A stretch of DNA of 64,000 nt from Cyanobacteriota bacterium (GCA_046045965.1 JBJOKS010000002.1:1-64000), one strand, 5' to 3'; counted from the stretch's first letter, positions 12,922 through 49,210 are shown. The notes: a model not told the origin generated them from the sequence alone. A program made the numbers and translations.

Positions 12922-15900
12922 ATGACTCAATCTGTTAATGATTTTTCTACGCTTGTAGAGTTACTGCGTTATAGGTCTTTGGAACAACTAAATACTGAGG
13001 CTTTTACTTTTCTGCCAGATGGAGAAGCACAGGGAAAGTCTTGGAATTACGCAGATTTGGACTGTCAAAGTAGAGTCATAGCTTGTCAACTGCAAGCATT
13101 AAAATTAACTGGTGAACGTGCATTACTCCTGTACCCACCAGGACTAGATTATTTAGCGGCTTTTTTTGGTTGTTTATATGCTGGAGTAGTAGCAGTTCCC
13201 GCCTATCCTCCCCGTAATCACCGCAACACACCGAGAATTTTAGCGATTTTAAAAGACTCACAAGCGTCAGTTATCCTGACCACATCAGGAATATTGTCAC
13301 AGGTGCAAACTTTACTAAAAGATACATTTGATACTAATAATATTCATTGGCTAACTACCGATGACCTTGAACCAGGTATAGAAGCAGATTGGCAAGAACC
13401 CGTAATAAATACGGACACTTTAGCATTTTTGCAATACACATCTGGTTCTACTGGTACACCTAAAGGGGTCATGCTAACTCATGGTAATTTATTACACAAC
13501 GCCGAAGTTACCAGGCAATACATGGAACATACAGCTAGTAGTAAATTTATTACTTGGCTACCTGCTTACCATGATATGGGATTAATTGGCGGTATCTTAC
13601 AGCCTTTGTATGGTGGATTTCCCTGTGTGATCATGCCCCCAACATCCTTTTTACAGCGTCCTTATCGGTGGTTAAAAGCCATTTCTGATTACCGTGGAAC
13701 TACTAGCGGCGCACCTAACTTTGCGTATCAATTATGTATTGACAAAATTACTCCAGAACAACGGCAAACCTTAGATTTAAGTAGTTGGGATGTAGCATTT
13801 AACGGTGCTGAACCTATCCGTCAAGAAACCTTAGAAAGATTTACACAAACCTTTGCAGAATGCGGTTTTCGTGCAGAAGCTTTCTATCCTTGCTATGGTA
13901 TGGCAGAAGCAACCTTAATGGTTTCTGGTAGCGTTAAATCTGCGTTAGTTAGAAACAAAAATTTACAAAAAACCGCTTTAGAATGCAATTATGTAATAGA
14001 TAGTCTTACTAACGCAGAGAACAGTATACACATCGTTTCCTGTGGTCGAGTTGTACCGCAACAACAGATAGTTATTGCTAACGCAGACACCTTAACCCGT
14101 TGCAGTGCTGATGAAGTTGGCGAAATTTGGGTATCAGGGCCAAGTATTGGTCATGGTTACTGGAACAGGCCAGAGGAAACAGCGCAAACATTTAACGCAT
14201 ATCTGCAAGATACAGGAGAAGGTCCATTTTTACGGACGGGAGATTTAGGTTTTCTCCATGATGGTGAACTTTTCATAACTGGACGTGCAAAAGATTTAAT
14301 AATTATTAGAGGACGTAATCTTTACCCCCAAGATATTGAACTCACAGCAGAACGTAGTCATAAAATGTTGCGTGCAGGAAGTGTTGCTGCTTTTGCGGTG
14401 GAGGTAGAAAAAGAAGAACAGTTAGTAGTAGTTCAAGAATTAGAATTTCGTGCGAAACCGAATATAGAAGAAGTAATAAATGCGATTAGAAAAGCTATTA
14501 CAGAAGAACATGAAATACAAGTTTATGCTGTTATTTTAATTAAAGGTGGCACAATTTCTAAAACCTCCAGTGGTAAAATTCAACGTCGCGCAACAAAAGC
14601 GAGATTTTTAGAAGGTACATTAGAAGTTGTTGGTAGTAGTATTTTAGAAATTAACCAAGCAACAGAACCGGAAACAGTTCTTACCCGCAGTGACTTATTA
14701 AAAACTGTACCAGAACAAAGACAACAATTATTAAATTCTCACTTACAAAAATTAGTATCTAGGGTTTTGAGAGTAAAACCTGAACAGGTAGATTTTCAAC
14801 AACCTTTAAGTAGTTTGGGTTTAGATTCTCTGAAAGTATTTGAGTTAAAAAATCGGATAGAAGTTGATTTTCAGGTAGTTATATCTATAGCTGAATTATT
14901 TGATGGTGCGGGTATTGCTGAGTTAACACATCAAATTCTTGAGCAAGTCAATAATAATGTCAATCATGTATACTTGCCTATTTCTAAAGTTGAGAAAAAT
15001 ACTAATCAGTACCCGCTAACTTTCACTCAACAACAGTTATGGTTTATCAATCAACTGCAACCAGGAACAGCTACATATAATATTCCTGTAGCAGTTCACA
15101 TTCCCGGAAATTTGAATTTTTCAGCTTTGGTAAATAGCCTCAATGCCATTATTCAAAGACATGAAATTTTACGCACTTGCTTTACCTTAGTAGATGGTGA
15201 AACTGTGCAGAAAATTGTTGATGTTGTGAATTTTACATTACCACAAATTGATTTACAGCATCTTGAACAGCAACAGCAAGAAACGGAGATAAAACGTTTA
15301 TATTTAGAAATAGCACAGACAGCTTTTGACTTAGAAAAAGCACCGTTATTAACAACGAAGTTGCTAAAACTGCACCCAGAAAAATCTATCTTGATTTTGA
15401 CATTACATCATTTAGTAGGTGACGGTTTTTCTATCAATATTTTAGTTAAAGAACTATCAACAATTTATCAATCCTTCTGTGCTGGTGAACCTGCTAATTT
15501 ATCAGAACTGCTTTTACAATATAGCGATTTTGTGTATTGGCAACGGCAATATTTAACAGGGGAAATTTTAGCACAAAATTTAGATTATTGGCGACAAAAA
15601 TTAAGCGGTGATTTACCTGTTTTACAACTACCAACAGACCAACCTAGACCACCTATACAAACTTTTAAAGGAGCGCAGCAGAAGTTTACAATTTCCAAAG
15701 CGTTAACTGAAGAAATTAAACAGTTAAGTAAAAGGGAAGATGCTACTTTATTTATGACTTTGTTAGCGGTATTTCAAACATTGCTTTATCGCTACACAGG
15801 TCAGGAAGATATTATTATAGGTTCACCAATTGCTAACCGTAACCGTGCAGAATTAGAACAATTAATTGGCTGTTTTGTCAATACTTTGGTATTACGTAGC

Positions 15901-18225
15901 AATTTAGCAGGAAATCCCAGCTTTAAAGAATTGTTAGCAAGGGTTAAAAAGACAGCAATTGAGGCTTATACTCACCAAGATTTACCTTTTGAAAAGTTAG
16001 TAGAAGCTTTACAGCCAAATCGGGATCTTAGCTATAACCCATTGTTCCAGGTAATGTTTGTACTTCAAAATTCTGATTCAGATACAATTTGGAAAACTGA
16101 AGAACTGGAGACAGCAACATCTAAGTTTGATATCCTGTTATCAATGATTGAAAGTGAGGGAGAATTAACAGGAACTCTGGAATATAATACTGGTTTATTT
16201 AACGCTGATTCTATTAGCAGAATGATTGGACATTTTCAAACTTTGCTAGAAAGTATAGCGAATAATGTTAATCAGTCTATTTCCGAATTACCAATATTGA
16301 CACCTGCTGAAAGTCAAACATTGTTAGTTGAGTGGAATAATACTCAAGTTGAGTATCCTGAATTTGCTTGTATTCATCATCTGTTTGAAGCACAGGTTGA
16401 AAAAACACCGGATGCTGTAGCAGTAGTATTTGAACATCAAAAACTTACCTATCAGGAGTTAAATAAAAAAGCCAATCAATTAGCACATTACCTGCAAATT
16501 TTAGGCGTGAAACCAGATACCTTGGTGGGTATTTGTATGGAACGATCTTTAGAAATGGTAGTGGGAATATTAGCCATTATGAAAGCGGGTGGAGCTTATT
16601 TACCATTAGATTCTAGCTATCCTCAAGAGCGTTTAGAGTTCATGTTAACAGATGCTCAATTATCATTCTTGCTAGTACAAACCCATCTAGTTGAACAATT
16701 ACCACCTCACCAAACGGAAGTTATAAATGTAGATAAAAATTGGGGTGAATTTGCGAATTATAGTGAATTAAATCCAGAAAGTAATGTACAATTAAAAAAT
16801 ATTGCTTATGTAATTTATACTTCTGGTTCAACAGGCAAACCCAAAGGAGCAATTAACACTCATCAAGGTTTATGTAACCGTTTATTGTGGATGCAAGATA
16901 CTTATAAATTGACATCCAACGATCAGGTTTTACAAAAAACGCCTTTTAGTTTTGATGTTTCTGTCTGGGAATTTTTCTGGCCTTTATTTACTGGTGCAAC
17001 CTTAGTGGTGGCTAAACCAGGTGGTCATCAAGATGCAAATTATTTAGTTGAGTGTATTCAGCAACAAAAAATTACAACCTTGCATTTTGTACCATCAATG
17101 CTGCAAGTGTTTTTAGAATCACCAACATTAGAACAATGTCACAGTTTAAAACGGGTTATTTGTAGTGGTGAAGCATTATCTTCTGAACTGCAAACGCGAT
17201 TTTTTGAATGTTGGCAATCTACAGGCTTAAATAATGTAGAATTACATAATCTCTATGGACCAACAGAAGCTGCAATTGATGTAACTTCCTGGCAATGTCA
17301 ACCATACTATCAAGAAAATATAGTTCCTATTGGTCGTCCTATCGCTAACACCCAAATCTATATTTTAGATTCACATTTGCAACCTGTTCCTATTGGTGTT
17401 GCTGGTGAATTGTATATTGGTGGTATGGGTTTAGCAAGAGGTTATTGGAATAGACAAGAATTGACAAATGAAAAGTTTATTTCTAGTCCTTTTGATGCTG
17501 GAAAACGCCTTTATAAAACAGGAGATTTAGCCCGTTATCGTGCTGATGGGAATATTGAATTTTTGGGTAGAATTGATCATCAAATAAAACTGCGTGGTTT
17601 TCGCATTGAATTAGGAGAAATTGAGGCAGTTATAGTACAATGTTCTCAAGTTAAAGAAACAGTAGTTATTGCTAATCAACAACGGTTAATTGCTTATGTA
17701 GTTCCTGAGCAAAAAGCGACATTTTCAACCACTGAACTAAAGCAGTTGATTAAACAAAAACTGCCGGAATATATGCTTCCTTCTGCCTTTGTGGTTTTAG
17801 AAGCATTACCTTTGACACCTAATGGTAAAGTAGATCGTCGTGCTTTACCAGCACCGGATAATTTACGTCCAGAATTAGCAAATAATTATCAACCTCCTGA
17901 ATCTGATGTAGAAAAATCAATTGCTAAAATTTGGAAACAAGTATTACAATTAGAAAAAGTAGGTGTTAATGATAATTTCTTTGACCTGGGTGGACATTCT
18001 TTATTAGTTGTACAGGTAAATAATAAACTTAGAGAAATTTTAAACCGGGATTTATCAGTTGTAGATATTTTTCAAAATCCTACTATTAAGTCATTAGCTG
18101 AATATTTAAGTAACAATTCAGAAGCAACAACTTTAGGCAAAATGCGCGAAAGAGTTGGTAAACAAAGAGAGGTTCTGAACCAACGCAATCAATTATTAAT
18201 GAAGAAACGAAAGAATTTTAAGTAA
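12922..18225 (+). CDS. NRPS starter: FAAL-ACP-C-A(Ser)-T
   Basis: FAAL motifs AFLQYTSGSTG, WLPAYHDMGLIG, YGMAEATL; ACP LGLDSL; C HHLVGDG; A code read as DVWH..LIDK (Ser type); PCP LGGHSL. Confidence 0.93.
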   Translation: MTQSVNDFSTLVELLRYRSLEQLNTEAFTFLPDGEAQGKSWNYADLDCQSRVIACQLQALKLTGERALLLYPPGLDYLAAFFGCLYAGVVAVPAYPPRNHRNTPRILAILKDSQASVILTTSGILSQVQTLLKDTFDTNNIHWLTTDDLEPGIEADWQEPVINTDTLAFLQYTSGSTGTPKGVMLTHGNLLHNAEVTRQYMEHTASSKFITWLPAYHDMGLIGGILQPLYGGFPCVIMPPTSFLQRPYRWLKAISDYRGTTSGAPNFAYQLCIDKITPEQRQTLDLSSWDVAFNGAEPIRQETLERFTQTFAECGFRAEAFYPCYGMAEATLMVSGSVKSALVRNKNLQKTALECNYVIDSLTNAENSIHIVSCGRVVPQQQIVIANADTLTRCSADEVGEIWVSGPSIGHGYWNRPEETAQTFNAYLQDTGEGPFLRTGDLGFLHDGELFITGRAKDLIIIRGRNLYPQDIELTAERSHKMLRAGSVAAFAVEVEKEEQLVVVQELEFRAKPNIEEVINAIRKAITEEHEIQVYAVILIKGGTISKTSSGKIQRRATKARFLEGTLEVVGSSILEINQATEPETVLTRSDLLKTVPEQRQQLLNSHLQKLVSRVLRVKPEQVDFQQPLSSLGLDSLKVFELKNRIEVDFQVVISIAELFDGAGIAELTHQILEQVNNNVNHVYLPISKVEKNTNQYPLTFTQQQLWFINQLQPGTATYNIPVAVHIPGNLNFSALVNSLNAIIQRHEILRTCFTLVDGETVQKIVDVVNFTLPQIDLQHLEQQQQETEIKRLYLEIAQTAFDLEKAPLLTTKLLKLHPEKSILILTLHHLVGDGFSINILVKELSTIYQSFCAGEPANLSELLLQYSDFVYWQRQYLTGEILAQNLDYWRQKLSGDLPVLQLPTDQPRPPIQTFKGAQQKFTISKALTEEIKQLSKREDATLFMTLLAVFQTLLYRYTGQEDIIIGSPIANRNRAELEQLIGCFVNTLVLRSNLAGNPSFKELLARVKKTAIEAYTHQDLPFEKLVEALQPNRDLSYNPLFQVMFVLQNSDSDTIWKTEELETATSKFDILLSMIESEGELTGTLEYNTGLFNADSISRMIGHFQTLLESIANNVNQSISELPILTPAESQTLLVEWNNTQVEYPEFACIHHLFEAQVEKTPDAVAVVFEHQKLTYQELNKKANQLAHYLQILGVKPDTLVGICMERSLEMVVGILAIMKAGGAYLPLDSSYPQERLEFMLTDAQLSFLLVQTHLVEQLPPHQTEVINVDKNWGEFANYSELNPESNVQLKNIAYVIYTSGSTGKPKGAINTHQGLCNRLLWMQDTYKLTSNDQVLQKTPFSFDVSVWEFFWPLFTGATLVVAKPGGHQDANYLVECIQQQKITTLHFVPSMLQVFLESPTLEQCHSLKRVICSGEALSSELQTRFFECWQSTGLNNVELHNLYGPTEAAIDVTSWQCQPYYQENIVPIGRPIANTQIYILDSHLQPVPIGVAGELYIGGMGLARGYWNRQELTNEKFISSPFDAGKRLYKTGDLARYRADGNIEFLGRIDHQIKLRGFRIELGEIEAVIVQCSQVKETVVIANQQRLIAYVVPEQKATFSTTELKQLIKQKLPEYMLPSAFVVLEALPLTPNGKVDRRALPAPDNLRPELANNYQPPESDVEKSIAKIWKQVLQLEKVGVNDNFFDLGGHSLLVVQVNNKLREILNRDLSVVDIFQNPTIKSLAEYLSNNSEATTLGKMRERVGKQREVLNQRNQLLMKKRKNFK

Positions 18226-18253
18226 TTTGATCAGCAATTTGAAAGGTTAAGTT

Positions 18254-21200
18254 ATGGAAAGTATTGCGATTATCGGAATTTCTGGACGGTTTCCAGGAGC
18301 TAAAAATATAACTGAGTTTTGGCAGAATTTATATGATGGAGTTGAGGCTATTTCTCAATTTAGCGATGAAGAATTAATTGCTGCGGGAGTTGATTCATTA
18401 TTACTAAATAATCCTAACTATATAAAAGTTGGGTCGGTATTAGAAGATATTGATTTATTTGATGCTGGTTTCTTTGGCTTTAACCCCAAAGAAGCAGAAA
18501 TGACTGATCCCCAACATCGGTTATTTTTAGAATGTGCTTGGGAGGCTTTAGAAAATGCGGGTTATGATGTGCAAAGATGTGAAAGTCGAATAGGGGTTTA
18601 TGCTGGTGCTAGTTTAAATAACTATCTATCTTTTAATTTAAATATTGATCAAATTGGTTCTGCTCATAGTTTTCAGAAATTAATTGGGAATGATAAAGAT
18701 TTTTTGTCTACCCGCGTTTCCTATAAATTAAATCTCACAGGACCGAGTTTAACAATACAAACCGCTTGTTCTACTTCTTTAGTTGCCACTGCTTTAGCTT
18801 GCCAAAGTTTATTAAATTACCAATGTGATATGGCTTTGGCTGGTGGTGCGTCAGTGCGTGTACCTCAAAAAACCGGGTATTTGCATCAAGAAGGGGGAAT
18901 TTTATCACCTGATGGCCATTGTCGCGCTTTTGATGCTAAAGCCCAAGGAACGGTTATTGGTAACGGTGTGGGTGTGGTGTTGTTAAAGCGGTTATCCGAT
19001 GCGATCGCAGATAGTGATCATATCTATGCTGTCATCAAAGGTAGTGCCATCAATAACGATGGTTCTAGTAAAGTTGGCTACACTGCACCCAGTGTAAATG
19101 GCCAAGCAGAGGCGATCGCCGAAGCCATAGCTTTAGCAGACATAGAACCGGAAACCATCACTTACATTGAAACTCACGGAACAGGAACAGCTTTAGGCGA
19201 CCCCATAGAGATATCTGCATTAACCAATGTTTTCCGTGCAGAGACAGATAAAAAAGGTTTCTGTGCCATAGGTTCAGTGAAAACAAATATTGGACATTTA
19301 GACGCAGCAGCAGGGGTTACAGGTTTAATTAAAACCGCCTTATCTTTGCAACATAAATTAATTCCTCCCAGCTTAAATTTTGAACAACCTAACCCAGAAA
19401 TTGACTTTGCAAACAGTCCTTTTTATGTCAATACTAAGCTGACAGAATGGAATACAAATCATATACCCAGACGTGCTGGAGTTAGTTCTTTAGGTATTGG
19501 TGGAACTAATGCTCATGTGATTTTAGAAGAAGCCCCAGAACAAGTCAAAAATCAAAAGTCAAAAGTCAAAAATCAATATTTATTATGTTTATCAGCTAAA
19601 ACTGATTCAGCTTTGGAAACTACTACCGAAAATTTAGTTCAACATTTAAAACAAAATCCTGATTTGGATTTAGCAGATGTAGCGTATACATTGCAAGTAG
19701 GAAGAAGTATTTTTAATTATCGTCGGTTTGTAGTTTGTCAAAACATTCAAGAGGCAATAAATACCTTAGAAAATCCCGACAACCAACAAGTATTAACTCA
19801 CTTTGAAGAACCCACAAAACGGGCTATTACTTTCATGTTTTCTGGACAGGGTTCTCAATATGTGAACATGGGTAAAGAACTTTATGAAAATGAGCCGACA
19901 TTTAGGGAACAGGTTGATAGTTGTTGTCTGCTACTCGAACCCTATTTAGGTTTAGATTTACGAGCAGTTATTTATCCCCAAGACTCAGAAAAACAAGCAA
20001 CAGTAGAACAATTAAAACAGACATCCTTAGCACAACCAGCATTGTTTGTAATTGAATATGCTTTAGCTCAACTGTGGATATCCTGGGGTATTTCTCCTCA
20101 AGCAATGATTGGACATAGTATAGGGGAATATGTAGCCGCTTGTTTAGCTGGTATCATGTCTTTAAAAGATGCCTTAAATATAGTTGCTGTCAGAGGAAAA
20201 TTGATGCAGCAAATCTCCCCAGGGGCAATGCTTTCTGTTTCTGCATCAGCAAATGAAATTAAAGATTTAATAACTGAAAATTTAGATTTAGCTGTTATTA
20301 ATTCACCTTCTTTGTGTGTAATTTCAGGAACTAATCAAGCTATTGATGAACTACAAGAAAAATTAACTACATTAAACATAGAATTTCGTCGTTTACACAC
20401 TTCCCATGCTTTTCATTCCTTCATGATGGAGGAAATGTTAGATTCATTTATTGCGGAAGTGACAAAAGTAAAACTGAATCCTCCGCAAATTCCTTTCATT
20501 TCTAATTTAACAGGAACTTGGATTACACCAGAACAAGCAACATCTCCAAATTATTGGGCGCAGCATTTACGGCAAACTGTTAATTTTTCTGCTGGTTTAT
20601 CAGTTTTATTACAAGAAACTGAAAGCATTTTGTTAGAAGTAGGACCAGGAAGAACTTTATGTAGTCTAGTTAAACAACACACCCAACAAGCAGCAGGACA
20701 AGTTGTTTTACCTTCTTTGCGTCATCCCCAGGAAGAAAAATCAGATATTAATTTCTTGCTCAATATTTTAGGGCGTTTATGGTTAGCAGGAGTTGAGATT
20801 AATTGGTCTGGTTATTATAGCCATGAACAACGTTACCGTGTACCTTTACCTACCTATCCTTTTGAACGTCAACGTTATTGGATTGAACCAGAAATACAAA
20901 AACCAGTAATTAATAAAGCTGGTAAAAAAGCTAATATTGATGAATGGTTTTATATTCCTTCTTGGAAACGAGTTCCCATTATTAAAACCAAAGATATTAA
21001 TTCTGGTTGCTCGTTAATTTTTGTAGATGAATCGAGTATAGGTTCAGAACTTGGGCAAAGATTTCAAGAACTAGGACAGGATGTAATTACTGTCAAAGTT
21101 GGAGAAATCTTTAAGCAAGTAGATAGTGATATTTACACTATCAACCCCAAACAAGCAGATGATTATCATCAATTGCTGCGACAGTTACGGGAAGAAGGTA

Positions 21201-23895: not shown

Positions 23896-23902
23896 ATTAA
23901 TT

Positions 23903-28621: not shown

Positions 28622-28839
28622 CTATACTGAGATATCAAAAATATGAATTTAAAAACATTCAAAAGAAAATCAATTACTACCCAGATCCCCGACTTCTGTG
28701 ATCAATTTATAATTTATGGATACCATCAATAAAAGAAGTCGGGGATCTTATCGCCTCGCCTCACCTGAATCATTACCAATTAACTATAGGGAGATATCAA
28801 AAATATGAACTTAAAAACATTCAAAAGAAAATCAATTAC
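28617..28839 (+). repeat. 61-bp direct repeat (28617-28677 / 28779-28839) flanking a 15-bp inverted repeat (28683-28697 / 28734-28748)
   Basis: Copies differ at 3 positions; AGATCCCCGACTTCT...AGAAGTCGGGGATCT lies between them. Confidence 0.92.
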
Positions 28840-34518: not shown

Positions 34519-34523
34519 ACAAT

Positions 34524-42481: not shown

Positions 42482-42498
42482 ATAAAAGGTAACTATTC

Positions 42499-45400
42499 AT
42501 GAATAAAAAAAATATTGAAAATATTTATCCTCTTTCGCCTACCCAACAAGGCATACTTTTTCATACTCTCCGCGCACCAGAATCAGGAGTTTATGTAGTT
42601 CAAAGCTGTTACACATTTAGCCAATCTATTAACATCGCTGCTTTTAAACAAGCTTGGCAACAAGTCATCAATCAGCACCCAATTCTCCGCACTTCTTTTC
42701 ACTGGAAACAGCACAAAGAACCGTTTCAAGTAGTACATAAATCTGTAGAATTACCTTGGCATCAACAGGACTGGCAAAACTTATCTGTCACTGCACAGCC
42801 AGAAAAATTAACAGCATTCTTAGCAGCAGATCGCCAACAAGGATTTGATATTTCTCAACCATCTTTAATGCGGTTGATATTGATTCAAATAGCCCCAGAA
42901 ACTTACCATTTTATTTGGAGTAGCCATCATTTAATTTTAGATGGGTGGTCTACAGCTTTGGTACTAAATCAGGTTTTTCAAGCTTACGAAGCATTATGTA
43001 AAGGACAAGTTTTTCCATTACCACATTCTCGTCCATATCAAGATTATATTGCTTGGTTACAACAGCAAAATTTAGCGAAAGCAGAAGAATTTTGGCGGAA
43101 ACACCTCAAAGGTTTTACTGCACCGACTCAACTAAAAGTTAATACTTTTGCTAATTCAATTACAGGATGTGGGGAAAAATCAATTAAGCTATCATCAGCA
43201 ACAACCACAGCATTACAATCATTTGCACGCCAACAAAAATTAACCTTAAATACTTTAATTCAAGGAACTTGGGCTATCCTTCTCAGTCGTTATAGTGGTG
43301 AAAAAGATATTGTTTTTGGATCTACTTCTGCTGGTCGTCCACCTAAGTTAATTGGTTCAGAATCAATGGTAGGTTTATTTATTAACACCTTACCAGTGCG
43401 TGTACAAATATCTGGAAACGAATTATTAATTCCCTGGTTGCAAAAACTTCAGGCGCAACAAATAGAAGCCCAGCAATATGAATATAGTCCTCTAGTTCAA
43501 GTCCAAGGATGGAGTGAAGTTCCGAGAGATTTGCCTTTATTTGAAACAATTTTAGTATTTGAAAACTACCCTGTAGATGCTGCCTTAAAAGCAAAAGCTA
43601 CAGAGATGCAAATCCATGATATTCGGTCTGCGGAATCAACAAATTATTCCCTTACTCTCTCAGTAGGGACAAGTACAGAATTAAAGTTAGAGATTTTATA
43701 TGATCGTAGTCGTTTTCATGCAGAAACTATAACTAGCATTTTAGGACATCTGCAAACATTATTGGAGGGTATTGTTGCCAATCCTCACCAATCTCTATCT
43801 TCATTACCTTTATTGACATCAGCCGAAATACATCAACAATTGGTGGAATGGAATAATACCCAAAGCAGCTATCCTCAAAATAAGTGTATCCATCAATTAT
43901 TTGAGAAACAGGTAGAAAAAACACCAGATGCAGTAGCGGTGGTGTTTAAAAATGACCAAATCACCTATCAACAACTCAACCAAAAAGCGAATCAACTAGC
44001 ACATTTTTTACAAAAATTGGGTGTAAAACCAGAAATACCAGTTGCCATTTGTATGGAACGTTCCCTGGAAATGGTAATTGGTGTATTAGGAATATTAAAA
44101 GCAGGTGGTGCTTATGTTCCCCTTGATCCTGCTTATCCAAAAGAAAGATTGAAATATATGTTTACCGATGCGGCAATATCGGTAATGCTCACTCAAAATA
44201 AATTATTAGCAAAATTGAGTGAATATCAAGAAAAAATTATTTGTTTAGATACTGACTGGGAGAATATTTCTCAAGAAAGTCAAGCAAATCCCTCAATTAA
44301 TATACAAGCTAATAACTTAGCTTATATCATTTACACTTCTGGTTCTACAGGAAAACCAAAAGGAGTAATGATTGAACATCAATCGTTAATAAATTTTACC
44401 GAAGCTGCCAAAGTTAAATACCAAATTCAACCGGGAGAAAGAATCTTACAATTTGCATCCATTAGTTTTGATGCTGCTGTTGAAGAAATTTATCCTTGTT
44501 TAACATCTGGTGCAACATTGGTACTGCGTACAGATGAAATGCTGACTTCTCTGGCTAAATTTATGGAAAACTGCCGCAATTGGCAAATTACAGTTTTGGA
44601 TTTACCTACAGCATACTGGCATTTAATAGTTTCCGAATTAGCAAATCACAACTTAACTTTACCAGAGTCATTAAGATTAGTCATTATTGGTGGAGAAAGC
44701 GCAATTCCTGAAAAAGTTGCAATTTGGCAACAGCAAGTAGGTACTTATCCTCAGTTAATTAATACCTATGGTCCAACAGAAACAACCGTAGTTGCCACCT
44801 ATTGTAATTTAACTACAACACAAATAAATGGGCAAGAAGTACCAATTGGTTGCCCTATTAATAATGTTCAAATATATCTCTTAGACCAGGACTTACAACC
44901 CTTACCTGTGGGTATACCTGGTGAAATCTACATTGGTGGTGCAGGTTTAGCAAGGGGTTATTTACACCGTCCTGAATTAACAGATGAAAAGTTTACACCC
45001 AATCCTTTTTTACCTGATGCTAAACTATATAAAACAGGAGATTTAGCTCGTTATCTTCCCAACGGTAATATTCAATTTATTGGACGTATTGATACTCAAA
45101 TAAAACTGCGCGGTTTTCGGATTGAACTAGGAGAAATTGAATCTGTTTTAATTCAACATCCAAATATTCAAGAAGCAGTAGTTACAGCGAGACAAAATAC
45201 CTTAGTAGGCTACATAGTTGCTGATTCTCAAAATATACCCAGCAGCAGCGACATTCAAAACTTCCTCAAAGAAAAGTTGCCAGAATATATGATTCCTAAT
45301 GGATTTATATTCTTAGAAAATCTGCCACTAACAACTAATGGCAAAATTGACCATCAAGCCTTACCCGCAGCAGATACGTCTATAACAGAAAGGAAAAAGC

Positions 45401-46878
45401 TATTTAAAGAAGCACGAACTTCCTTAGAGAAGGAATTGCTAACAATCTGGCGGGAAATTTTGCATCGTCCCCAAATTAGCATTGATGAAAACTTTTTCGA
45501 TTTAGGTGGACATTCTTTATTAATAGTTCAGTTATTTGCCCGTATCCGTTCTGCTTTCCAAATAGATTTACCCCTACAGACTTTGTTTGAAGCACCAACT
45601 ATAGAAACTCTTGCAGCACAATTAGAAATAGCCCGTCAAGCTAAATTATCCTCAACAATTACTCTTACTAATTCTACCTTAGACCTCAAAACTGAAGCAG
45701 TTCTTGATCCCACAATTACAGTTGAGGGTAAATCAATTGAATATACAAATGAACCAACTTGTATATTTATCACAGGTGCAACAGGTTTCGTAGGTGCTTT
45801 TTTACTCGACGAACTTCTCAATCAAAGTCAAGCTGAAATTTATTGCTTGGTACGTGCTAATAATTTTGCAGAAGGTAAGCAAAAAATTTATCAAGCTTTA
45901 ACAGCATATTCAATTGGGAATGAATCACAAATTTCTCGAATTGTTCCAGTTTTAGGAGATTTATCTCAACCGCTTTTAGGTCTTTCCCCAGCACAGTTTA
46001 CAGCACTAGCTCAAAAAATAGATGTTATTTACCATAATGGTGCATGGGTACATCATACTTATCCATACTCCACACTCAAAACCGCTAATGTTTTAGGTAC
46101 GCAAGAAGTTTTAAGATTAGCTAGTGAAATTAAAATTAAACCTGTACATTTCATTTCGACTATTAGCGTTTTTTCTGCACCTATAGGTTCTGGAGTACAT
46201 CTAGTTCAAGAACAGTCTAACCTTGATGATTTTCCCATACCAGAAGGTGGTTATACCCAAAGTAAATGGGTTGCAGAACAGCTAATTAATATTGCAAGTA
46301 AACGTGGCTTACCAGTTTCTATTTATAGATTAGGGAGGGTATCAGGACATAGCAGAACAGGTGTATTTAATCCTAATGACTTTTTTTATCGCTTACTTAT
46401 TGGCTGCATTCAATTAGGAAAAGTCCCTAATGTAGACTATTTAGAAAATCTCGCTCCTGTAGATTATGTCAGCAAAGCAATAGTCAATTTATCCCAAAAA
46501 CAACAATCTTTAGGAAAAGCTTTTCACTTACTCAATTCTCATTATCTCGATTTAAATATGCTATTCAATAGCATTCGTGAATTTGGTTATCCAATACAAG
46601 CAATTTCTCAAGCACAGTGGTATGAAGAATTAGTAAAAATAGCAGAAAATTATCCAGACCATCCTTTATATCCATTGATACCATTTTTCATGCACTCTCA
46701 TCAAACTAAAAACTTAAAAGTATTAAAATTTGATTGTGAGCAAACATTAAATTCACTGGCTAACAGTTCCATTTTTTGTCCAAAAATAGATGGAAACCTC
46801 TGCAAAACTTATATCTCACACTTGATTAGTAGTGGTTTAGTCCAAAAACCACAAAAACTGCAAATTTCTGTAAATTAA
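42499..46878 (+). CDS. Terminal NRPS C(DCL)-A(Lys/Arg-like)-T-R (thioester reductase)
   Basis: WSSHHLILDGWS; A code read as DAEDIGTVVK (basic residue); R domain ITGATGFVG and YTQSK; no TE. Confidence 0.9.
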   Translation: MNKKNIENIYPLSPTQQGILFHTLRAPESGVYVVQSCYTFSQSINIAAFKQAWQQVINQHPILRTSFHWKQHKEPFQVVHKSVELPWHQQDWQNLSVTAQPEKLTAFLAADRQQGFDISQPSLMRLILIQIAPETYHFIWSSHHLILDGWSTALVLNQVFQAYEALCKGQVFPLPHSRPYQDYIAWLQQQNLAKAEEFWRKHLKGFTAPTQLKVNTFANSITGCGEKSIKLSSATTTALQSFARQQKLTLNTLIQGTWAILLSRYSGEKDIVFGSTSAGRPPKLIGSESMVGLFINTLPVRVQISGNELLIPWLQKLQAQQIEAQQYEYSPLVQVQGWSEVPRDLPLFETILVFENYPVDAALKAKATEMQIHDIRSAESTNYSLTLSVGTSTELKLEILYDRSRFHAETITSILGHLQTLLEGIVANPHQSLSSLPLLTSAEIHQQLVEWNNTQSSYPQNKCIHQLFEKQVEKTPDAVAVVFKNDQITYQQLNQKANQLAHFLQKLGVKPEIPVAICMERSLEMVIGVLGILKAGGAYVPLDPAYPKERLKYMFTDAAISVMLTQNKLLAKLSEYQEKIICLDTDWENISQESQANPSINIQANNLAYIIYTSGSTGKPKGVMIEHQSLINFTEAAKVKYQIQPGERILQFASISFDAAVEEIYPCLTSGATLVLRTDEMLTSLAKFMENCRNWQITVLDLPTAYWHLIVSELANHNLTLPESLRLVIIGGESAIPEKVAIWQQQVGTYPQLINTYGPTETTVVATYCNLTTTQINGQEVPIGCPINNVQIYLLDQDLQPLPVGIPGEIYIGGAGLARGYLHRPELTDEKFTPNPFLPDAKLYKTGDLARYLPNGNIQFIGRIDTQIKLRGFRIELGEIESVLIQHPNIQEAVVTARQNTLVGYIVADSQNIPSSSDIQNFLKEKLPEYMIPNGFIFLENLPLTTNGKIDHQALPAADTSITERKKLFKEARTSLEKELLTIWREILHRPQISIDENFFDLGGHSLLIVQLFARIRSAFQIDLPLQTLFEAPTIETLAAQLEIARQAKLSSTITLTNSTLDLKTEAVLDPTITVEGKSIEYTNEPTCIFITGATGFVGAFLLDELLNQSQAEIYCLVRANNFAEGKQKIYQALTAYSIGNESQISRIVPVLGDLSQPLLGLSPAQFTALAQKIDVIYHNGAWVHHTYPYSTLKTANVLGTQEVLRLASEIKIKPVHFISTISVFSAPIGSGVHLVQEQSNLDDFPIPEGGYTQSKWVAEQLINIASKRGLPVSIYRLGRVSGHSRTGVFNPNDFFYRLLIGCIQLGKVPNVDYLENLAPVDYVSKAIVNLSQKQQSLGKAFHLLNSHYLDLNMLFNSIREFGYPIQAISQAQWYEELVKIAENYPDHPLYPLIPFFMHSHQTKNLKVLKFDCEQTLNSLANSSIFCPKIDGNLCKTYISHLISSGLVQKPQKLQISVN

Positions 46879-46898
46879 TTCACATCCTCACAACTATC

Positions 46899-48323
46899 AT
46901 GAAGAAAAAATTTTTTAGCTTACAACAAACCTTATCTCCTACCGAGGTTGTACCTCAAAATACACCAGAAAGTTACTTGTCTCAATTCATTAAAAATTAT
47001 AATGCTAGGACAAAAACATCAAAACAAATTACACAAGACTATCGAGCTACTTTAGCTGATAGCCGCAATCCCTATGGGTTTAGTTTGCCTTTGAAAGAGC
47101 TTTGTTATCCCATTGTCGCGCAAAAATCTTTAGGTTCAAGAATTTGGGATGTTGACGGTAATGAATATATAGATTTGGTTATGGGATTAGGTATCAATCT
47201 TTTTGGACATAACCCACCTTTTATTAAACAAGCTTTACTTGAACAACTAGACCAAGGTATTCACATTGGACCACAAACAGAATTAGCTGGTGAAGTTGCG
47301 GAGTTAATCTCAGACCTGACAGGAATGGAAAGAGTAACTTTTAGTAATACAGGCACAGAAGCAGTAATGACAGCAATTCGTATTGCTAGAGCCGCAACAA
47401 AGCGTTATAAAATAGCCATCTTTTCTGGTTCATATCATGGTCATTCTGATGGAACTTTAGTAAAATTGCAAGAATTAGATGGAAAATTGCAAACAGTTCC
47501 TTTAACTTGTGGAGTTCCAAAAAGTATTGTTGAAAATGTGTTGATTTTGGATTATGGAAATCCTCAATCATTGGAAGTAATTAAAACTCATGGCAAAGAA
47601 TTAGCTGCTGTTTTAGTTGAACCTGTACAAGATGGTTGTCTCGATTTACAACCAAAAGAATTTCTGCATCAATTGCGGCAATTAACCACAGAGTTAGGTA
47701 TAGTTTTGATTTTCGATGAAATGATTACTGGGTTTAGAATTCATCCAGGTGGAGCGCAAGCATGGTTTGATGTTCAGGCAGATATAGCTACTTACGGAAA
47801 GATTGTTGGTGGAGGAATGCCAATTAGTGTGATTGCTGGTAAAGCTGTTTATATGGATAAAATTGATGGCGGTATGTGGAACTATGGAGATTCTTCTTTT
47901 CCCCAGGTAGAAACAACATTTTTTGCAGGTACATATTGTAAACATCCTTTATCTTTGGCAGCAGCAAAAGCTGTACTCAAGTATATGCAATCTCAAGGTT
48001 CTCAGTTGCAAACAAAATTGAATCAAAAAACAGCAGAGTTTGTAAAAACTTTAAATGATTATTTTGCAGTATTGGGTTTACCTATAAAAATGACACATTT
48101 TGGTTCTTTATTTGGTCCTGCTAGTTCTGGAGTGTCAGCCAGTTCCAATACAGATTCAGGAATAGGTTTAAGTTTATTAACCTATCATTTAATTCACAAA
48201 GGTATCTTGATTAGAGGTAGTAGCGGTTTTTTATCTACTGCTCATACCGATGAAGATATTAATTACATTATTCAAGCTGTTAAGGATAGTATCAGTGAAT
48301 TGGCTTCAGGAGGATTATTGTAA
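46899..48323 (+). CDS. Class III PLP aminotransferase (GSA-aminomutase-like, PKS/NRPS AMT type), stand-alone
   Basis: WDVDGNEYID, SNTGTEAV, LIFDEMITGFR and DIATYGKIVGGG (catalytic Lys). Confidence 0.9.
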   Translation: MKKKFFSLQQTLSPTEVVPQNTPESYLSQFIKNYNARTKTSKQITQDYRATLADSRNPYGFSLPLKELCYPIVAQKSLGSRIWDVDGNEYIDLVMGLGINLFGHNPPFIKQALLEQLDQGIHIGPQTELAGEVAELISDLTGMERVTFSNTGTEAVMTAIRIARAATKRYKIAIFSGSYHGHSDGTLVKLQELDGKLQTVPLTCGVPKSIVENVLILDYGNPQSLEVIKTHGKELAAVLVEPVQDGCLDLQPKEFLHQLRQLTTELGIVLIFDEMITGFRIHPGGAQAWFDVQADIATYGKIVGGGMPISVIAGKAVYMDKIDGGMWNYGDSSFPQVETTFFAGTYCKHPLSLAAAKAVLKYMQSQGSQLQTKLNQKTAEFVKTLNDYFAVLGLPIKMTHFGSLFGPASSGVSASSNTDSGIGLSLLTYHLIHKGILIRGSSGFLSTAHTDEDINYIIQAVKDSISELASGGLL

Positions 48324-48361
48324 TTGCAAAAATATTCTTGTGTAAAACTTTTGTATAAAAG

Positions 48362-49210
48362 TTGATGAATTTGGCAAAAAAATTATTTGAGGATACAAAA
48401 ATCATGAAAATAACGCCTACTGAACGCATTAATCAACCATCAACAACAGAATTTTGGAATGAGTTTGTAGTTCCAGACAAACCAGTAATTATCACTGGAG
48501 TTGCTAATGAGTGGAAAGCTTGTGAACAGTGGACACCAGAGACATTTAAATCCATGTTTGGAGATGTAATTGCTCCTTTAAGAGCAAGTGATGATGAAAT
48601 AGAGGTATTCTTTGGTGGTTTGGCAGAAAAAAAACTCATTTCTATAGCTGATTATATAGACAGTATTTTGTCGGCAACTCAAGATGGTGAGAAACGGTTA
48701 TATTTAGGTAATATTCCCTTTGATTCTCCTATAGCTAAAGCCCATCTTGACAAAATCAGACCGGATTTTGAATTTCCTAATTATTTTCCAGACAATACTG
48801 GTAATGATTTACGTCTCTGGATTGGAGGAGCTAATCAAAAATCAACTATTCACAACGACAATTATCATAATCTTAATGCACAGATATTTGGTGAAAAAAC
48901 ATTTTTATTGTTTGCCCCAGAAGAGTATCAAAAATTATATGCTACAAAGATGGATGATGAATTATGGTCAAGTCCTATAGACCCGCAAAAGCCGAATTTA
49001 TCAAAATATCCATTATTTGATGATGTTACTGGATTAGAAGCTGTACTTACTCCAGGAGATATACTTTTTATTCCTGCTTTTTGGTGGCATCAAGCACGGT
49101 CAATTACACCAGCTATTAACGTTAATATGTGGGTTTATACTCATAAAATATGTGAAATTTGGGAACAACATCCTGTTTTGAGCGGAAATATGGCTAATGT
49201 TGTTTCGTAA
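48362..49210 (+). CDS. JmjC/cupin-8 Fe(II)/2OG hydroxylase (FIH-like); start may be ATG 48404
   Basis: KPVIITG, LWIG, HxD (IHND) and distal His (PGDILFIPAFWWH). Confidence 0.88.
   Translation: MMNLAKKLFEDTKIMKITPTERINQPSTTEFWNEFVVPDKPVIITGVANEWKACEQWTPETFKSMFGDVIAPLRASDDEIEVFFGGLAEKKLISIADYIDSILSATQDGEKRLYLGNIPFDSPIAKAHLDKIRPDFEFPNYFPDNTGNDLRLWIGGANQKSTIHNDNYHNLNAQIFGEKTFLLFAPEEYQKLYATKMDDELWSSPIDPQKPNLSKYPLFDDVTGLEAVLTPGDILFIPAFWWHQARSITPAINVNMWVYTHKICEIWEQHPVLSGNMANVVS

What the first reader, a model, noticed from the sequence alone, without database searches (positions are those of the whole stretch)
12922..49210. Candidate new lipopeptide siderophore line: acyl-Ser-PK-Ser-D-betaOHAsp-Orn-D-Gln-Lys/Arg, released reductively
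Seen: a colinear FAAL/NRPS/PKS line with six A domains (codes read by eye as Ser, Ser, Asp, Orn, Gln, basic residue), one malonyl KS-AT-KR module, two E domains and a terminal R domain, inside a complete TBDT/ABC/TonB-ExbBD locus. Known: FAAL-started beta-OH-Asp siderophores exist in cyanobacteria (cyanochelins), and anachelin uses Ser-derived polyketide units. Inference: this residue order with R release, LLM, AMT and JmjC matches no compound I recognise. No Cy domain or salicylate/catechol genes are present.
Basis: partly seen in the sequence, partly recalled or inferred. Interest (0 to 1): 0.9.

Follow-up and report, generated by a model that had tools for sequence, protein, structure and literature searches.

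The report
Uncharacterised cyanobacterial lipopeptide siderophore gene cluster
This is an intact cyanobacterial gene cluster for an iron-scavenging lipopeptide related to the cyanochelins, whose predicted product matches none of the three described cyanochelins and carries an unusual set of tailoring enzymes.

Summary
Window 12922-49210 holds 11 co-directional genes: FAAL-ACP-C-A(Ser)-T; KS-AT(malonyl)-KR-ACP; a MupA/Atu3671-family LLM; C-A(Ser)-T-C; TauD; interface-A(Asp)-T-E; C-A(Orn)-T; C-A(Gln)-T-E; C-A(Lys/Arg)-T-R; an aminotransferase; a JmjC oxygenase. They sit inside an AMIN-TBDT, Fec-type ABC, TonB/ExbBD, exporter, FetAB and PvdQ-like acylase locus.

It is best read as a cyanochelin-like beta-hydroxyaspartate siderophore cluster. 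It also uses a PKS+LLM cassette and a reductase+aminotransferase tail, features found in fabrubactin/anachelin-type clusters. It has only one beta-OH-Asp module, and its residue order differs from cyanochelins A, B and C.

The tail (TauD, I-A(Asp)-T-E, C-A-T, C-A-T-E, C-A-T-R, aminotransferase, JmjC) recurs in Nostoc sp. 106C and on a Gloeothece PCC 7424 plasmid. A congener keeps the whole line but has three A domains swapped (Thr, Gly, Gly) and an added glycosyltransferase.

No product is known. I could not run a MIBiG comparison, and the 2021 cyanochelin survey was not readable. My verdict is a real cluster and a new variant of a known kind, of moderate interest rather than the 0.9 given.

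The parts
3968..7623 (-). Two ABC exporter genes with fused membrane and ATPase domains (3968-5752 and 5863-7623); candidate siderophore export.
   Evidence: Pfam ABC_membrane + ABC_tran. 94% and 97% aa identity in congener G007, at the same place.
7620..7991 (-). DUF1636 small protein within the transporter cassette.
   Evidence: Pfam PF07845, 116 bits. 94% aa identity in G007.
8218..9231 (-). Periplasmic siderophore-binding protein.
   Evidence: Pfam Peripla_BP_2. 91% aa identity in G007.
9249..12218 (-). TonB-dependent receptor with an N-terminal AMIN domain.
   Evidence: Pfam AMIN + Plug + TonB_dep_Rec_b-barrel. A preprint reports the AMIN-TBDT fusion only in cyanobacteria.
12922..18225 (+). 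O1: FAAL-ACP-C(starter position)-A(Ser)-T.
   Evidence: Pfam. Code DVWHISLIDK.
18254..22810 (+). O2: KS-AT(malonyl)-KR-ACP.
   Evidence: Pfam. KS has TACSTS, HGTGT and NIGH. AT has GHSIGE and HAFH. KR has TGGMGGMG and YCAAN and no LDD.
22807..23895 (+). O3: stand-alone FMN-dependent luciferase-like monooxygenase. Its ends overlap O2 and O4.
   Evidence: TIGR04020 MupA/Atu3671 family, 499.9 bits against a cut-off of 244. 50-51% aa identity to Agrobacterium orthologs and 56-59% to LLMs in cyanobacterial PKS-LLM-C siderophore-type loci. 44% to the in-line LLM domain of cyanochelin B CcsC.
23888..28621 (+). O4: C-A(Ser)-T-C.
   Evidence: Pfam, two Condensation stretches. The second domain has HHIISDAWS and groups with the C domains, not the E domains. 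Code DVWHISLIDK.
28805..29812 (+). O5: stand-alone TauD-family Asp beta-hydroxylase.
   Evidence: Pfam TauD, 175 bits. 55.8% aa identity to the stand-alone TauD on the cyanochelin B plasmid (H32).
29848..34518 (+). O6: interface (non-catalytic C-like) domain, then A(Asp)-T-E.
   Evidence: The Condensation match is only 193 bits. HH is replaced at the aligned motif, and the domain groups at 31-42% with TauD-adjacent domains of other clusters against 21-24% to the window's C domains. Code DLTKIGHVGK is identical to a cyanochelin B Asp module.
34524..37808 (+). O7: C (the type found after an E domain)-A(Orn)-T.
   Evidence: Pfam. Code DVGEIGSIDK. C4 pairs with C6 at 53%.
37808..42481 (+). O8: C-A(Gln)-T-E.
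   Evidence: Pfam. Code DAWQFGLIDK. E motif HHLAIDGVSWRIL.
42499..46878 (+). O9: C-A(Lys/Arg-like)-T-R, with a terminal thioester reductase.
   Evidence: Pfam NAD_binding_4, 235 bits. GATGFVG and YTQSK motifs. Code DAEDIGTVVK is 8 of 10 to Lys DGEDHGTVVK and 8 of 10 to the Arg consensus given in PMC12283262, section 11.
46899..48323 (+). O10: class-III aminotransferase of the reductase-coupled clade.
   Evidence: Pfam Aminotran_3. Best PDB match is the MycA aminotransferase domain, 1.3e-140. It falls in a 9-row group (SH-aLRT 98) that holds all 8 rows with an R domain upstream.
48362..49210 (+). O11: JmjC/Cupin_8 2-oxoglutarate oxygenase; no signal peptide seen by eye.
   Evidence: Pfam Cupin_8, 154 bits. 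Best PDB matches are JMJD5 (5e-27), JMJD7 and FIH, and the HxD...H triad is aligned. Atlas structure match to JMJD5 clusters, TM 0.77-0.79.
49345..50679 (+). MFS exporter (EntS/Mef-like).
   Evidence: Pfam MFS_1 and NCBIfam hits below cut-off. 69-70% aa identity to the gene at the same place in Nostoc sp. 106C.
50785..52352 (+). FetA/FetB-like ABC pair (50785-51489 and 51555-52352).
   Evidence: Pfam ABC_tran and UPF0014. The cyanochelin C preprint describes fetAB next to that cluster.
52464..54581 (-). Ntn-hydrolase acylase (penicillin amidase family, PvdQ-like) with an N-terminal hydrophobic segment.
   Evidence: Pfam Penicil_amidase, 450 bits. PvdQ model 228 bits, below its cut-off of 950. 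N-terminus. 59% aa identity to the acylase beside the Gloeothece cluster.
54632..57705 (-). FecE-like ATPase and two FecCD permeases.
   Evidence: Pfam ABC_tran and FecCD twice.
57725..60611 (.). ExbD (57725-58123, -), ExbB (58107-58760, -) and TonB (59031-60611, +).
   Evidence: Pfam ExbD, MotA_ExbB and TonB_C.

Best explanation
The locus encodes the synthesis, export, maturation and re-import of an uncharacterised cyanochelin-like lipopeptide siderophore.

Shown by sequence: the domain order, the A-domain codes, the intact catalytic motifs and the transport context.

Inferred assembly, step by step:
1. The FAAL loads a fatty acid, which is condensed onto L-Ser.
2. The PKS module adds one malonyl unit, and its KR reduces the keto group.
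3. The stand-alone LLM oxidises the alpha carbon of this ACP-bound unit. The likelier outcome is simple alpha-hydroxylation, as in the LLM-KR module of cyanochelin B, whose product is a 2,3-dihydroxy acid. The alternative is an FbnE-type rearrangement to an alpha-hydroxycarboxylate.
4. L-Ser is added.
5. Asp is loaded on O6 and hydroxylated on the carrier protein by TauD, which is recruited by the non-catalytic interface domain. It is then epimerised. By analogy with CcsK/CcsL of cyanochelin B, this gives D-threo-beta-OH-Asp.
6. L-Orn, D-Gln and a Lys/Arg-type residue follow.
7. The R domain releases the chain as a C-terminal aldehyde.
8. The reductase-coupled aminotransferase converts the aldehyde to a primary amine, giving a 1,2-diamine terminus.
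9. The cytoplasmic JmjC oxygenase hydroxylates a still unidentified position of the conserved D-Glx-X tail.

After export through the ABC or MFS transporters, the periplasmic acylase probably removes the fatty acid, as reported for pyoverdine and cyanochelin C. The ferric complex returns through the AMIN-TBDT, the binding protein and the FecCDE system, powered by TonB-ExbBD.
For: Domain map and motifs.

A-domain codes. The method was validated on 4 of 4 cyanochelin B A domains.

Siderophore context. This is the only NRPS cluster in the genome. No IucA/IucC was found, and there is no Orn/Lys N-hydroxylase above noise, in a genome that is 92% complete.

Beta-OH-Asp logic: TauD is 55.8% identical to the stand-alone hydroxylase of the cyanochelin B plasmid. 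The paper assigns D-threo-beta-OH-Asp to that TauD-plus-E-domain module.

LLM: TIGR04020, 500 bits. The LLM domain of cyanochelin B CcsC is 44% identical and sits in a module whose solved product carries an alpha-OH and a beta-OH. FbnE is proposed to make alpha-hydroxycarboxylates.

R and aminotransferase coupling:
- Among 80 loci with a homologous aminotransferase, 6 have an R domain directly upstream. L002 makes a seventh, with a gap of about 1.9 kb. 61 have KS or AT directly upstream.
- The R-coupled aminotransferases need a single change on the tree (0 of 500 shuffles as low).
- The Nostoc 106C and Gloeothece clusters keep R plus the aminotransferase but have no PKS.

Conservation and integrity: congener G007 has the same 11 genes, with no stop inside any ORF called there. 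DNA identity is 80-94% across the colinear segments.

Acylase precedent.
Against: Only one classical bidentate ligand (one beta-OH-Asp) is predicted. Cyanochelins A, B and C each use two, so hexadentate binding needs ligands that I only infer.

No product, no expression data and no iron-regulation data exist. No RNA run holds the sequence. An E. coli-type Fur-box scan was uninformative.

The closest solved relative of the aminotransferase is a PKS beta-ketoacyl aminotransferase. In cyanochelins B and C, terminal reductases give alcohols, not amines.

The JmjC gene lies in the transporter cassette in Gloeothece, so it may act in iron release rather than in biosynthesis.

The Lys/Arg call is ambiguous. 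Specificity labels for the Ser, Orn and Gln codes are recalled and were not computed by a predictor.
Confidence: 0.75

Rival explanations
1. The aminotransferase acts on the PKS module, converting the beta-keto thioester to a beta-amino acid as in mycosubtilin, iturin or puwainaphycin. It would work with the LLM to make an alpha-hydroxy-beta-amino unit. The R domain would then release an aldehyde or alcohol that is not aminated.
For: The best PDB match is the MycA aminotransferase domain, 1.3e-140. 61 of 80 homologous loci have KS or AT directly upstream. 6 of the 80 place an LLM right beside the aminotransferase (L005, L007, L022, L041, L063) or one domain beyond it (L027). Cyanochelins B and C end in alcohols.
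Against: The PKS module has an intact KR. The gene sits directly after the R-domain gene, 24 kb from the PKS. The enzyme belongs to the R-coupled clade. Nostoc 106C and Gloeothece keep the R-aminotransferase pair without any PKS.
Confidence: 0.1
2. The cluster makes one of the already described cyanochelins (A, B or C) or another published compound, so nothing is new.
For: It shares the FAAL start, the TauD and interface-domain logic, the AMIN-TBDT cassette, the acylase and FetAB with cyanochelin clusters.
Against: The residue orders differ. Cyanochelin B is acyl-thiazoline, Phe, Gly, beta-OH-Asp, Ser, beta-OH-Asp, ethanolamine. Cyanochelin C is Val, MeOx, Lys, beta-Ala, beta-OH-Asp, Gly, DHABA. 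As I recall the abstract of Galica et al. 2021 (paper not held), cyanochelin A has phenolate and oxazole units. No Cy domain is present here. The literature searches found no compound with this order. MIBiG could not be searched.
Confidence: 0.05
3. The line makes a lipopeptide aldehyde or amine with another role (for example a protease inhibitor or a surfactant) and merely lies beside iron-transport genes.
For: Terminal R domains with a basic last residue occur in argininal-type protease inhibitors (recalled). Only one beta-OH-Asp is predicted.
Against: Transport genes flank the line on both sides, and the same arrangement is kept in G007. The TauD-plus-interface-domain signature is the one used to recognise beta-OH-Asp siderophores. 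The Nostoc 106C and Gloeothece relatives carry two hydroxylase modules and TBDT genes.
Confidence: 0.05
4. The JmjC enzyme is not a biosynthetic tailoring enzyme. It would act on the imported ferri-siderophore, in iron release or recycling.
For: In Gloeothece PCC 7424 the ortholog (55% aa identity) lies in the transporter cassette, between a sucrase-ferredoxin gene and the ABC exporters, on the opposite strand from the NRPS.
Against: In the window, in G007 and in Nostoc 106C the gene directly follows the aminotransferase on the biosynthetic strand. No such role is known for JmjC enzymes (recalled).
Confidence: 0.15

Closest known systems
Cyanochelin B cluster (Leptolyngbya sp. NIES-3755 plasmid 2, AP017310.1; PMC12628792)
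   Same: It has a FAAL start and a PKS module with an LLM-type oxygenase and a KR. It has a stand-alone TauD before an interface-A(Asp)-T-E module that gives D-threo-beta-OH-Asp. It ends in a reductase, and an AMIN-TBDT, binding-protein, FecCD and MFS cassette lies beside it.
   Different: Cyanochelin B has two beta-OH-Asp residues, a Cy/methylthiazoline unit, Phe and Gly, and an in-line LLM. It ends in ethanolamine. I saw no JmjC or aminotransferase in the part I examined (positions 1-46000; the remainder was not inspected). The window has one beta-OH-Asp, a Ser-derived polyketide unit, Orn, D-Gln and a basic residue, and the R + aminotransferase + JmjC set.
Cyanochelin C cluster (Myxacorys; bioRxiv 10.64898/2026.07.24.740629)
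   Same: The FAAL-started peptide is found without its acyl group, and this is ascribed to a PvdQ-like acylase encoded beside the cluster. It has reductive release, and fetAB and a transporter cassette lie adjacent.
   Different: It is NRPS only, with a Cy domain. Its residues are Val, MeOx, D-Lys, beta-Ala, beta-OH-Asp, Gly and DHABA. Its transaminase is assigned to beta-Ala supply.
Fabrubactin (Agrobacterium fabrum C58) and the anachelin family (Vinnik et al. 2021; paper not held, known to me from recall and from passages of PMC12971057)
   Same: It has a MupA/Atu3671-family LLM (50-51% aa identity to Agrobacterium orthologs), a FAAL, a KS-AT-KR module, and a C-A-T-R gene directly followed by an aminotransferase of the same clade.
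   Different: The last A domain here codes for a basic residue, not Tyr or DOPA. No tyrosinase or candidate FbnL/FbnM is in the window. This cluster has beta-OH-Asp logic and a JmjC gene.
Uncharacterised clusters of Nostoc sp. 106C (NZ_MTAW01000140.1) and Gloeothece citriformis PCC 7424 plasmid pP742401 (NC_011738.1)
   Same: They share the same tail: TauD, I-A-T-E, C-A-T, C-A-T-E, C-A-T-R, aminotransferase (59-73% aa identity) and JmjC (55-63%). They also have a FAAL start, a TBDT and, in Gloeothece, an acylase.
   Different: Neither has the Ser-PKS-LLM cassette, and both have two hydroxylase modules. Codes for Nostoc: Asp, Ser, DSALIAEVWK (His-like), Orn, Gln, Val. Codes for Gloeothece: Orn, Asp, Gly, Asp, Val, DFWHFGQVDK, DAEDIGSIVK.
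Myxochelin B pathway (MxcG reductase + MxcL aminotransferase; recalled, not checked here)
   Same: A carrier-bound acid is reductively released to an aldehyde, which is then transaminated to a primary amine.
   Different: It is a catecholate siderophore built on lysine. I made no sequence comparison.

Membership tests
Cyanochelin-like beta-OH-Asp lipopeptide siderophore clusters (markers used in the cyanochelin C preprint) | NRPS assembly line | tested here: met
   6 A domains and 9 Condensation-family domains.
Cyanochelin-like beta-OH-Asp lipopeptide siderophore clusters | TonB-dependent siderophore receptor nearby | tested here: met
   AMIN-Plug-barrel TBDT at 9249-12218, divergent from O1.
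Cyanochelin-like beta-OH-Asp lipopeptide siderophore clusters | FAAL domain at the start | tested here: met
   O1 residues 1-580 match AMP-binding and the DIP2-like AMP domain, followed by an ACP. They are 54% identical to the cyanochelin B FAAL.
Cyanochelin-like beta-OH-Asp lipopeptide siderophore clusters | Asp beta-hydroxylase with a beta-OH-Asp interface (C-like) domain before an Asp-specific A domain | tested here: met
   TauD at 28805-29812. The O6 N-terminal domain lacks HH and groups with the TauD-adjacent domains of 2 other clusters and of G007. It is 30% identical to the cyanochelin B interface domain. The Asp code is identical.
Cyanochelins A, B and C (the named compounds) | Two beta-OH-Asp-derived residues and the published residue order | tested here: not met
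   One TauD and one Asp module are present. The residue orders differ.
Fabrubactin/anachelin (Dmaq) family | FbnE-type MupA/Atu3671 LLM | tested here: met
   TIGR04020, 499.9 bits. 50-51% aa identity to Agrobacterium orthologs.
Fabrubactin/anachelin (Dmaq) family | C-terminal module with an R domain followed by an aminotransferase | tested here: met
   O9 and O10. The same aminotransferase clade holds the Agrobacterium sp. SOY23 enzyme.
Fabrubactin/anachelin (Dmaq) family | Dmaq chelator: FbnL/FbnM (Tyr to DOPA) and an aromatic last residue | tested here: not met
   The last code, DAEDIGTVVK, is of the basic type. Every window ORF of 150 aa or more has another assignment, and no tyrosinase is present. 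No FbnL/FbnM profiles were available, so their absence rests on the lack of unassigned ORFs.
MycA-type PKS beta-ketoacyl aminotransferases | Sequence family (GSA-aminomutase-like class III) | tested here: met
   PDB 6KFM, 1.3e-140 over residues 24-473.
MycA-type PKS beta-ketoacyl aminotransferases | Placed in or directly after a KS(-AT) module that lacks a KR | tested here: not met
   The gene follows the R-domain gene, and the only PKS module has a KR. It lies in the R-coupled clade.
JMJD5/JMJD7/FIH-type JmjC hydroxylases | Cupin_8 fold with an HxD...H iron triad and a 2OG-binding Lys | tested here: met
   Aligned to JMJD5 at 5e-27 with HND and WWH conserved, and the Lys of GEK aligned to the Lys of GRK. 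TM 0.77-0.79 to JMJD5 clusters.
JMJD5/JMJD7/FIH-type JmjC hydroxylases | C3 hydroxylation of Arg, Lys or Asn side chains | not testable with these tools
   The substrate is unknown. The last residue differs among the carrier clusters (basic, basic, Val, basic), while the penultimate D-residue is Gln or Glx-like in all four.
PvdQ/CcsQ-type siderophore maturation acylases | Ntn-hydrolase of the penicillin amidase family, exported, encoded beside a FAAL-started siderophore cluster | tested here: met
   Pfam 450 bits. N-terminal hydrophobic segment. The PvdQ equivalog model scores 228 bits against a cut-off of 950, so it is not PvdQ itself. No direct comparison with CcsQ was possible.

The most novel reading that the evidence does not exclude
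The conserved tail builds a metal-binding or recognition end group not yet seen in siderophores. The tail is a D-Glx residue, a variable last residue, the R domain, the reductase-coupled aminotransferase and a JMJD5-like JmjC oxygenase. The end group would be a C-terminal 1,2-diamine carrying a JmjC-installed hydroxyl. The hydroxyl could be on the D-Glx residue, making a second alpha-hydroxy-acid-type ligand, or on C3 of the basic residue. Together with an LLM-made alpha-hydroxy unit on the Ser-derived polyketide, this would complete iron coordination around a single beta-OH-Asp. It would also be the first assignment of a JmjC-family enzyme to non-ribosomal siderophore tailoring.
Probability: 0.25. 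Interest if true: 0.75.

Novelty: new variant of a known kind. Interest (0 to 1): 0.5.

Why it matters
Few cyanobacterial siderophores have been solved, and a recent genome-mining paper names cyanobacteria as under-studied for peptide metallophores.

This cluster joins three biosynthetic ideas that have so far been described separately:
- cyanochelin-type beta-OH-Asp formation;
- a PKS+LLM oxidation cassette;
- reductive release followed by amination.
It adds a JmjC oxygenase of unknown role.

If the product is isolated, it would test two questions. One is what the LLM does next to a KR: plain hydroxylation or an FbnE-type rearrangement. The other is whether JmjC enzymes tailor non-ribosomal peptides.

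The pair formed by the window genome and its congener G007 is also useful in itself. It is a clean natural case of A-domain replacement inside otherwise conserved C, T and E scaffolds, which is relevant to NRPS engineering and to how siderophore 'privatisation' evolves.

Tried and rejected
- Papers not held. Galica et al. 2021 (PMC8357277) and Vinnik et al. 2021 could not be read. I therefore could not check whether this cluster type is among the 31 published cyanochelin-like clusters, nor the details of the fabrubactin pathway.
- Unreadable supplement. The supplement of PMC12283262, with code tables, could not be read. I used only section 11 and passages of the main text.
- Literature search for the exact codes found 3 papers, none relevant.
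- Search for anachelin + aminotransferase + reductase domain gave no relevant paper among the 15 listed of 139.
- Search for PCC 7424 + siderophore + hydroxyaspartate gave nothing on that cluster.
- Earlier findings of this scan: nothing, in 3 look-ups.
- Fur-box scan. I scanned for the recalled E. coli 19-mer consensus. The best matches (13-14 of 19) were all genic, with no enrichment in the promoter spacers, so the scan was uninformative.
- Promoter scan of the TBDT/O1 spacer found 1 site against 3.1 expected from shuffles, so it was also uninformative.
- Sequencing runs: no RNA holder is listed. I laid no reads.
- Hydroxamate idea for the Orn residue, rejected. There is no Orn/Lys N-hydroxylase above noise in the genome. 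The best hit is 32.6 bits for a family that matches 12 of 14 control genomes. The congener also replaces Orn by Gly.
- Aminotransferase as an Orn, Dab or beta-Ala supplier, rejected. There is no such module in G007, yet the gene is kept at 95%.
- I first read HHLLHD in O6 as a catalytic motif. The alignment shows it is offset from the true motif position, where HH is replaced.
- I did not use structure prediction, complex prediction or the large protein-database searches, because the PDB and Atlas results already placed the enzymes.

Full report
OBSERVATION

The window has about 35% G+C. Between 12922 and 49210 it carries eleven genes on the + strand with short or overlapping junctions.

Pfam, motif searches and alignments of the A and C-type domains give this map:
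- O1: FAAL-ACP-C-A-T
- O2: KS-AT-KR-ACP
- O3: luciferase-like monooxygenase (LLM)
- O4: C-A-T-C
- O5: TauD
- O6: C-like domain, then A-T-E
- O7: C-A-T
- O8: C-A-T-E
- O9: C-A-T-R
- O10: class-III aminotransferase
- O11: Cupin_8/JmjC

The last domain of O4 is a genuine C domain (HHIISDAWS).

The N-terminal domain of O6 has the HH of HHxxxDG replaced. It groups at 31-42% identity with the domains that follow TauD genes or domains in three other clusters. Against the window's own six C domains it is only 21-24% identical. This is what the literature calls the beta-OH-Asp interface domain.

The C domains after each E domain (C4 and C6) form their own pair at 53% identity. That fits D-residue acceptors.

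The KS has its Cys and His residues. The AT has GHSIGE and HAFH, which I recall as the malonyl signature. The KR has its NADPH and Tyr motifs and no LDD. The R domain has GATGFVG and YTQSK.

A-DOMAIN CODES

I read the ten Stachelhaus positions from an alignment. The anchors are recalled from GrsA numbering. The codes are DVWHISLIDK, DVWHISLIDK, DLTKIGHVGK, DVGEIGSIDK, DAWQFGLIDK and DAEDIGTVVK.

The same script returned Cys-, Phe-, Gly- and Asp-type codes for 4 of 4 A domains tested from the cyanochelin B cluster, whose product is solved. The Asp code there is identical to that of O6.

The labels Ser, Orn and Gln rest on recalled canonical codes. For the last domain, section 11 of PMC12283262 gives Lys as DGEDHGTVVK and an Arg consensus of D-[AV]-E-D-[IVL]-G-A-[VI]-[TD]-K. 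O9 matches each at 8 of 10 positions. 'Basic residue' is therefore the honest call.

CONTEXT

Upstream and divergent from O1 lie:
- a TBDT with AMIN, Plug and barrel domains;
- a periplasmic binding protein;
- a DUF1636 gene;
- two ABC exporters.

Downstream lie:
- an MFS exporter;
- a FetA/FetB-like pair;
- a penicillin-amidase-family acylase with an N-terminal hydrophobic segment;
- FecE and two FecCD permeases;
- ExbD, ExbB and TonB.

A preprint reports the AMIN-TBDT fusion only in cyanobacteria.

The nine strong Condensation matches of the 5.29-Mb, 92%-complete genome all lie in the window. No IucA/IucC gene was found, and there is no Orn/Lys N-hydroxylase above noise. This is therefore the only recognisable siderophore synthesis locus in what is assembled.

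RELATIVES

A congener, G007, has the same eleven genes in the same order at 80-94% nucleotide identity across the colinear segments. The transport genes lie around them, partly rearranged. Two other congeners gave no match to the line (G008, 99% complete; G009, 80% complete).

In a sample of 400 further genomes of the phylum, only G007 has a JmjC ortholog at E <= 1e-50 (1 of 400).

In G007 the C, T, E, R, LLM, TauD, aminotransferase and JmjC parts are 78-98% identical in protein. Three A domains are only 53-57% identical, and the Asp A domain is 75% identical. The G007 codes read DFWNIGMVHK (Thr), DILQLGLIWK (Gly), DLTKIGHVGK (Asp), DILQLGMIWK (Gly), DAWQFGLIDK (Gln) and DAEDIGTVVK. A GT1 glycosyltransferase gene is inserted between O1 and O2.

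The parts kept between the two species are therefore:
- the hydroxy-amino-acid-plus-PKS-plus-LLM unit;
- beta-OH-Asp;
- the D-Gln-basic-R-aminotransferase-JmjC tail.
Orn is dispensable, which argues against a hydroxamate.

The tail recurs elsewhere. In Nostoc sp. 106C the order is FAAL-ACP-C-TauD | I-A(Asp)-T-E | C-A(Ser)-T-E-C | TauD | I-A(DSALIAEVWK)-T-E | C-A(Orn)-T | C-A(Gln)-T-E | C-A(Val)-T-R | aminotransferase | JmjC | MFS.

On plasmid pP742401 of Gloeothece citriformis PCC 7424 the same tail ends in DAEDIGSIVK. There the JmjC gene lies in the transporter cassette, and an acylase follows it.

The penultimate, epimerised residue is Gln in three clusters. In Gloeothece it is DFWHFGQVDK, which is 8 of 10 to a Glu code that I recall.

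THE AMINOTRANSFERASE

Its closest solved relative is the aminotransferase domain of mycosubtilin synthase A (1.3e-140).

Among 80 loci fetched with it:
- 61 have KS or AT directly upstream;
- 6 have an R domain directly upstream, and L002 makes a seventh with a gap of about 1.9 kb;
- 10, including L002, have nothing recognisable within 1.5 kb;
- 3 have another neighbour.

In a quick maximum-likelihood tree of 78 rows, I dropped two loci for short or stop-containing matches. The 8 R-coupled rows, including the window and an Agrobacterium sp. SOY23 locus of fabrubactin type, fall in one 9-row group (SH-aLRT 98). The label needs one change (0 of 500 shuffles as low).

Kin share labels, so this shows clustering, not function. 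Still, the enzyme is retained in two clusters that have no PKS, and there is an intact KR in O2. Together these favour transamination of the aldehyde released by R. That step is inferred. Terminal reductases of cyanochelins B and C give alcohols.

THE LLM

O3 scores 499.9 bits on TIGR04020, the MupA/Atu3671 family. Its identities are:
- 50-51% to Agrobacterium orthologs;
- 56-59% to LLMs that follow a KS-AT-KR-ACP gene and precede a C domain on plasmids of Pseudanabaena ABRG5-3 and Gloeocapsa PCC 7428. The first has a salicylate synthase, a TBDT and ExbBD/TonB. The second has a tyrosinase and a TBDT;
- 44% to the LLM domain at the start of cyanochelin B CcsC.

That CcsC module (Ox-cMT-KR) yields a 2,3-dihydroxy-2-methyl acid in the solved structure. 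This supports plain alpha-hydroxylation.

The alternative comes from fabrubactin. FbnE is proposed to create alpha-hydroxycarboxylate ligands, a pathway said to be reported only there (passages of PMC12971057).

Sequence identity does not decide between the two.

THE JmjC ENZYME

It matches no NCBIfam model. Its best PDB matches are JMJD5, an arginyl C3 hydroxylase (5e-27), then JMJD7 and FIH. The HxD...H triad and the 2OG-binding Lys are aligned. The Atlas structure search agrees.

I saw no signal peptide by eye. Its substrate is unknown.

COMPARISON WITH KNOWN SYSTEMS

The locus meets the four markers used for cyanochelin-like clusters. It also has the acylase and FetAB seen at the cyanochelin C locus.

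It fails the compound-level test. It has one beta-OH-Asp module instead of two and a different residue order.

With the fabrubactin/anachelin family it shares the LLM and the R-aminotransferase pair. It lacks the Dmaq logic.

The literature searches found no compound with this order. MIBiG and the 2021 survey were out of reach.

VERDICT

This is a real, intact cluster conserved in one congener. It is a new variant of the cyanochelin-like family with an uncharacterised product.

The main uncertainties are the second and third iron ligands, the role of the JmjC enzyme, the Lys versus Arg call, and whether the line is expressed.

Noticed in passing
window 28660-28781 (spacer between O4 and the TauD gene): There is a MITE-like insert with a perfect 15-nt terminal inverted repeat. 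It is flanked by a direct duplication of about 40 nt that includes the TauD start (28620-28659 versus 28782-28820). The congener G007 has only a 21-nt spacer at this place. Copies of 80-100 nt occur dozens of times in G007, G008 and G009.
   Followed up: partly
G007:C23:110224-147964 (loci L104, L105) compared with window 12922-49210: This is natural A-domain replacement between congeners. Three of six A domains are only 53-57% identical and change the predicted residues (Ser to Thr, Ser to Gly, Orn to Gly). The flanking C, T and E domains stay 76-98% identical.
   Followed up: yes
G007:C23:115556-116830 (L104:5556-6830): G007 has an extra GT1-family glycosyltransferase gene (EryCIII-like C-terminal domain) between the FAAL-NRPS gene and the PKS gene. 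The gene is absent from the window. It suggests a glycosylated variant in the sister species.
   Followed up: partly
window 59031-60611: The TonB protein has its TonB_C domain at residues 293-360. It is followed by a low-complexity tail of about 165 residues with repeated runs of five or six Arg. The G007 match covers only residues 285-424.
   Followed up: no
window 7620-7991: A DUF1636 gene sits between the binding-protein gene and the ABC exporter genes. It is kept at 94% in G007. Its role in siderophore transport or iron handling is unknown.
   Followed up: no
window 19540-19575: A heptamer-like repeat (variants of AGTCAAA) lies inside the KS-AT linker of O2 and encodes KNQKSKVKNQ. Short matches to it are scattered over many G009 contigs.
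   Followed up: no
L101 (NZ_AP017565.1, Pseudanabaena sp. ABRG5-3 plasmid) and L100 (NC_019746.1, Gloeocapsa sp. PCC 7428 plasmid): Two plasmid-borne siderophore-type loci share the KS-AT-KR-ACP | LLM | C cassette, with KS 62-65% and LLM 56-59% identical to the window. One has a salicylate synthase and a Cys-type module. The other has three PKS genes and a tyrosinase.
   Followed up: partly
L005, L007, L022, L041, L063: In five loci from several phyla, the LLM sits right beside a PKS-embedded aminotransferase (KS-AT-AMT-LLM or KS-AT-LLM-AMT). I recall this arrangement as the one that makes alpha-hydroxy-beta-amino fatty acids in puwainaphycin-type lipopeptides.
   Followed up: no
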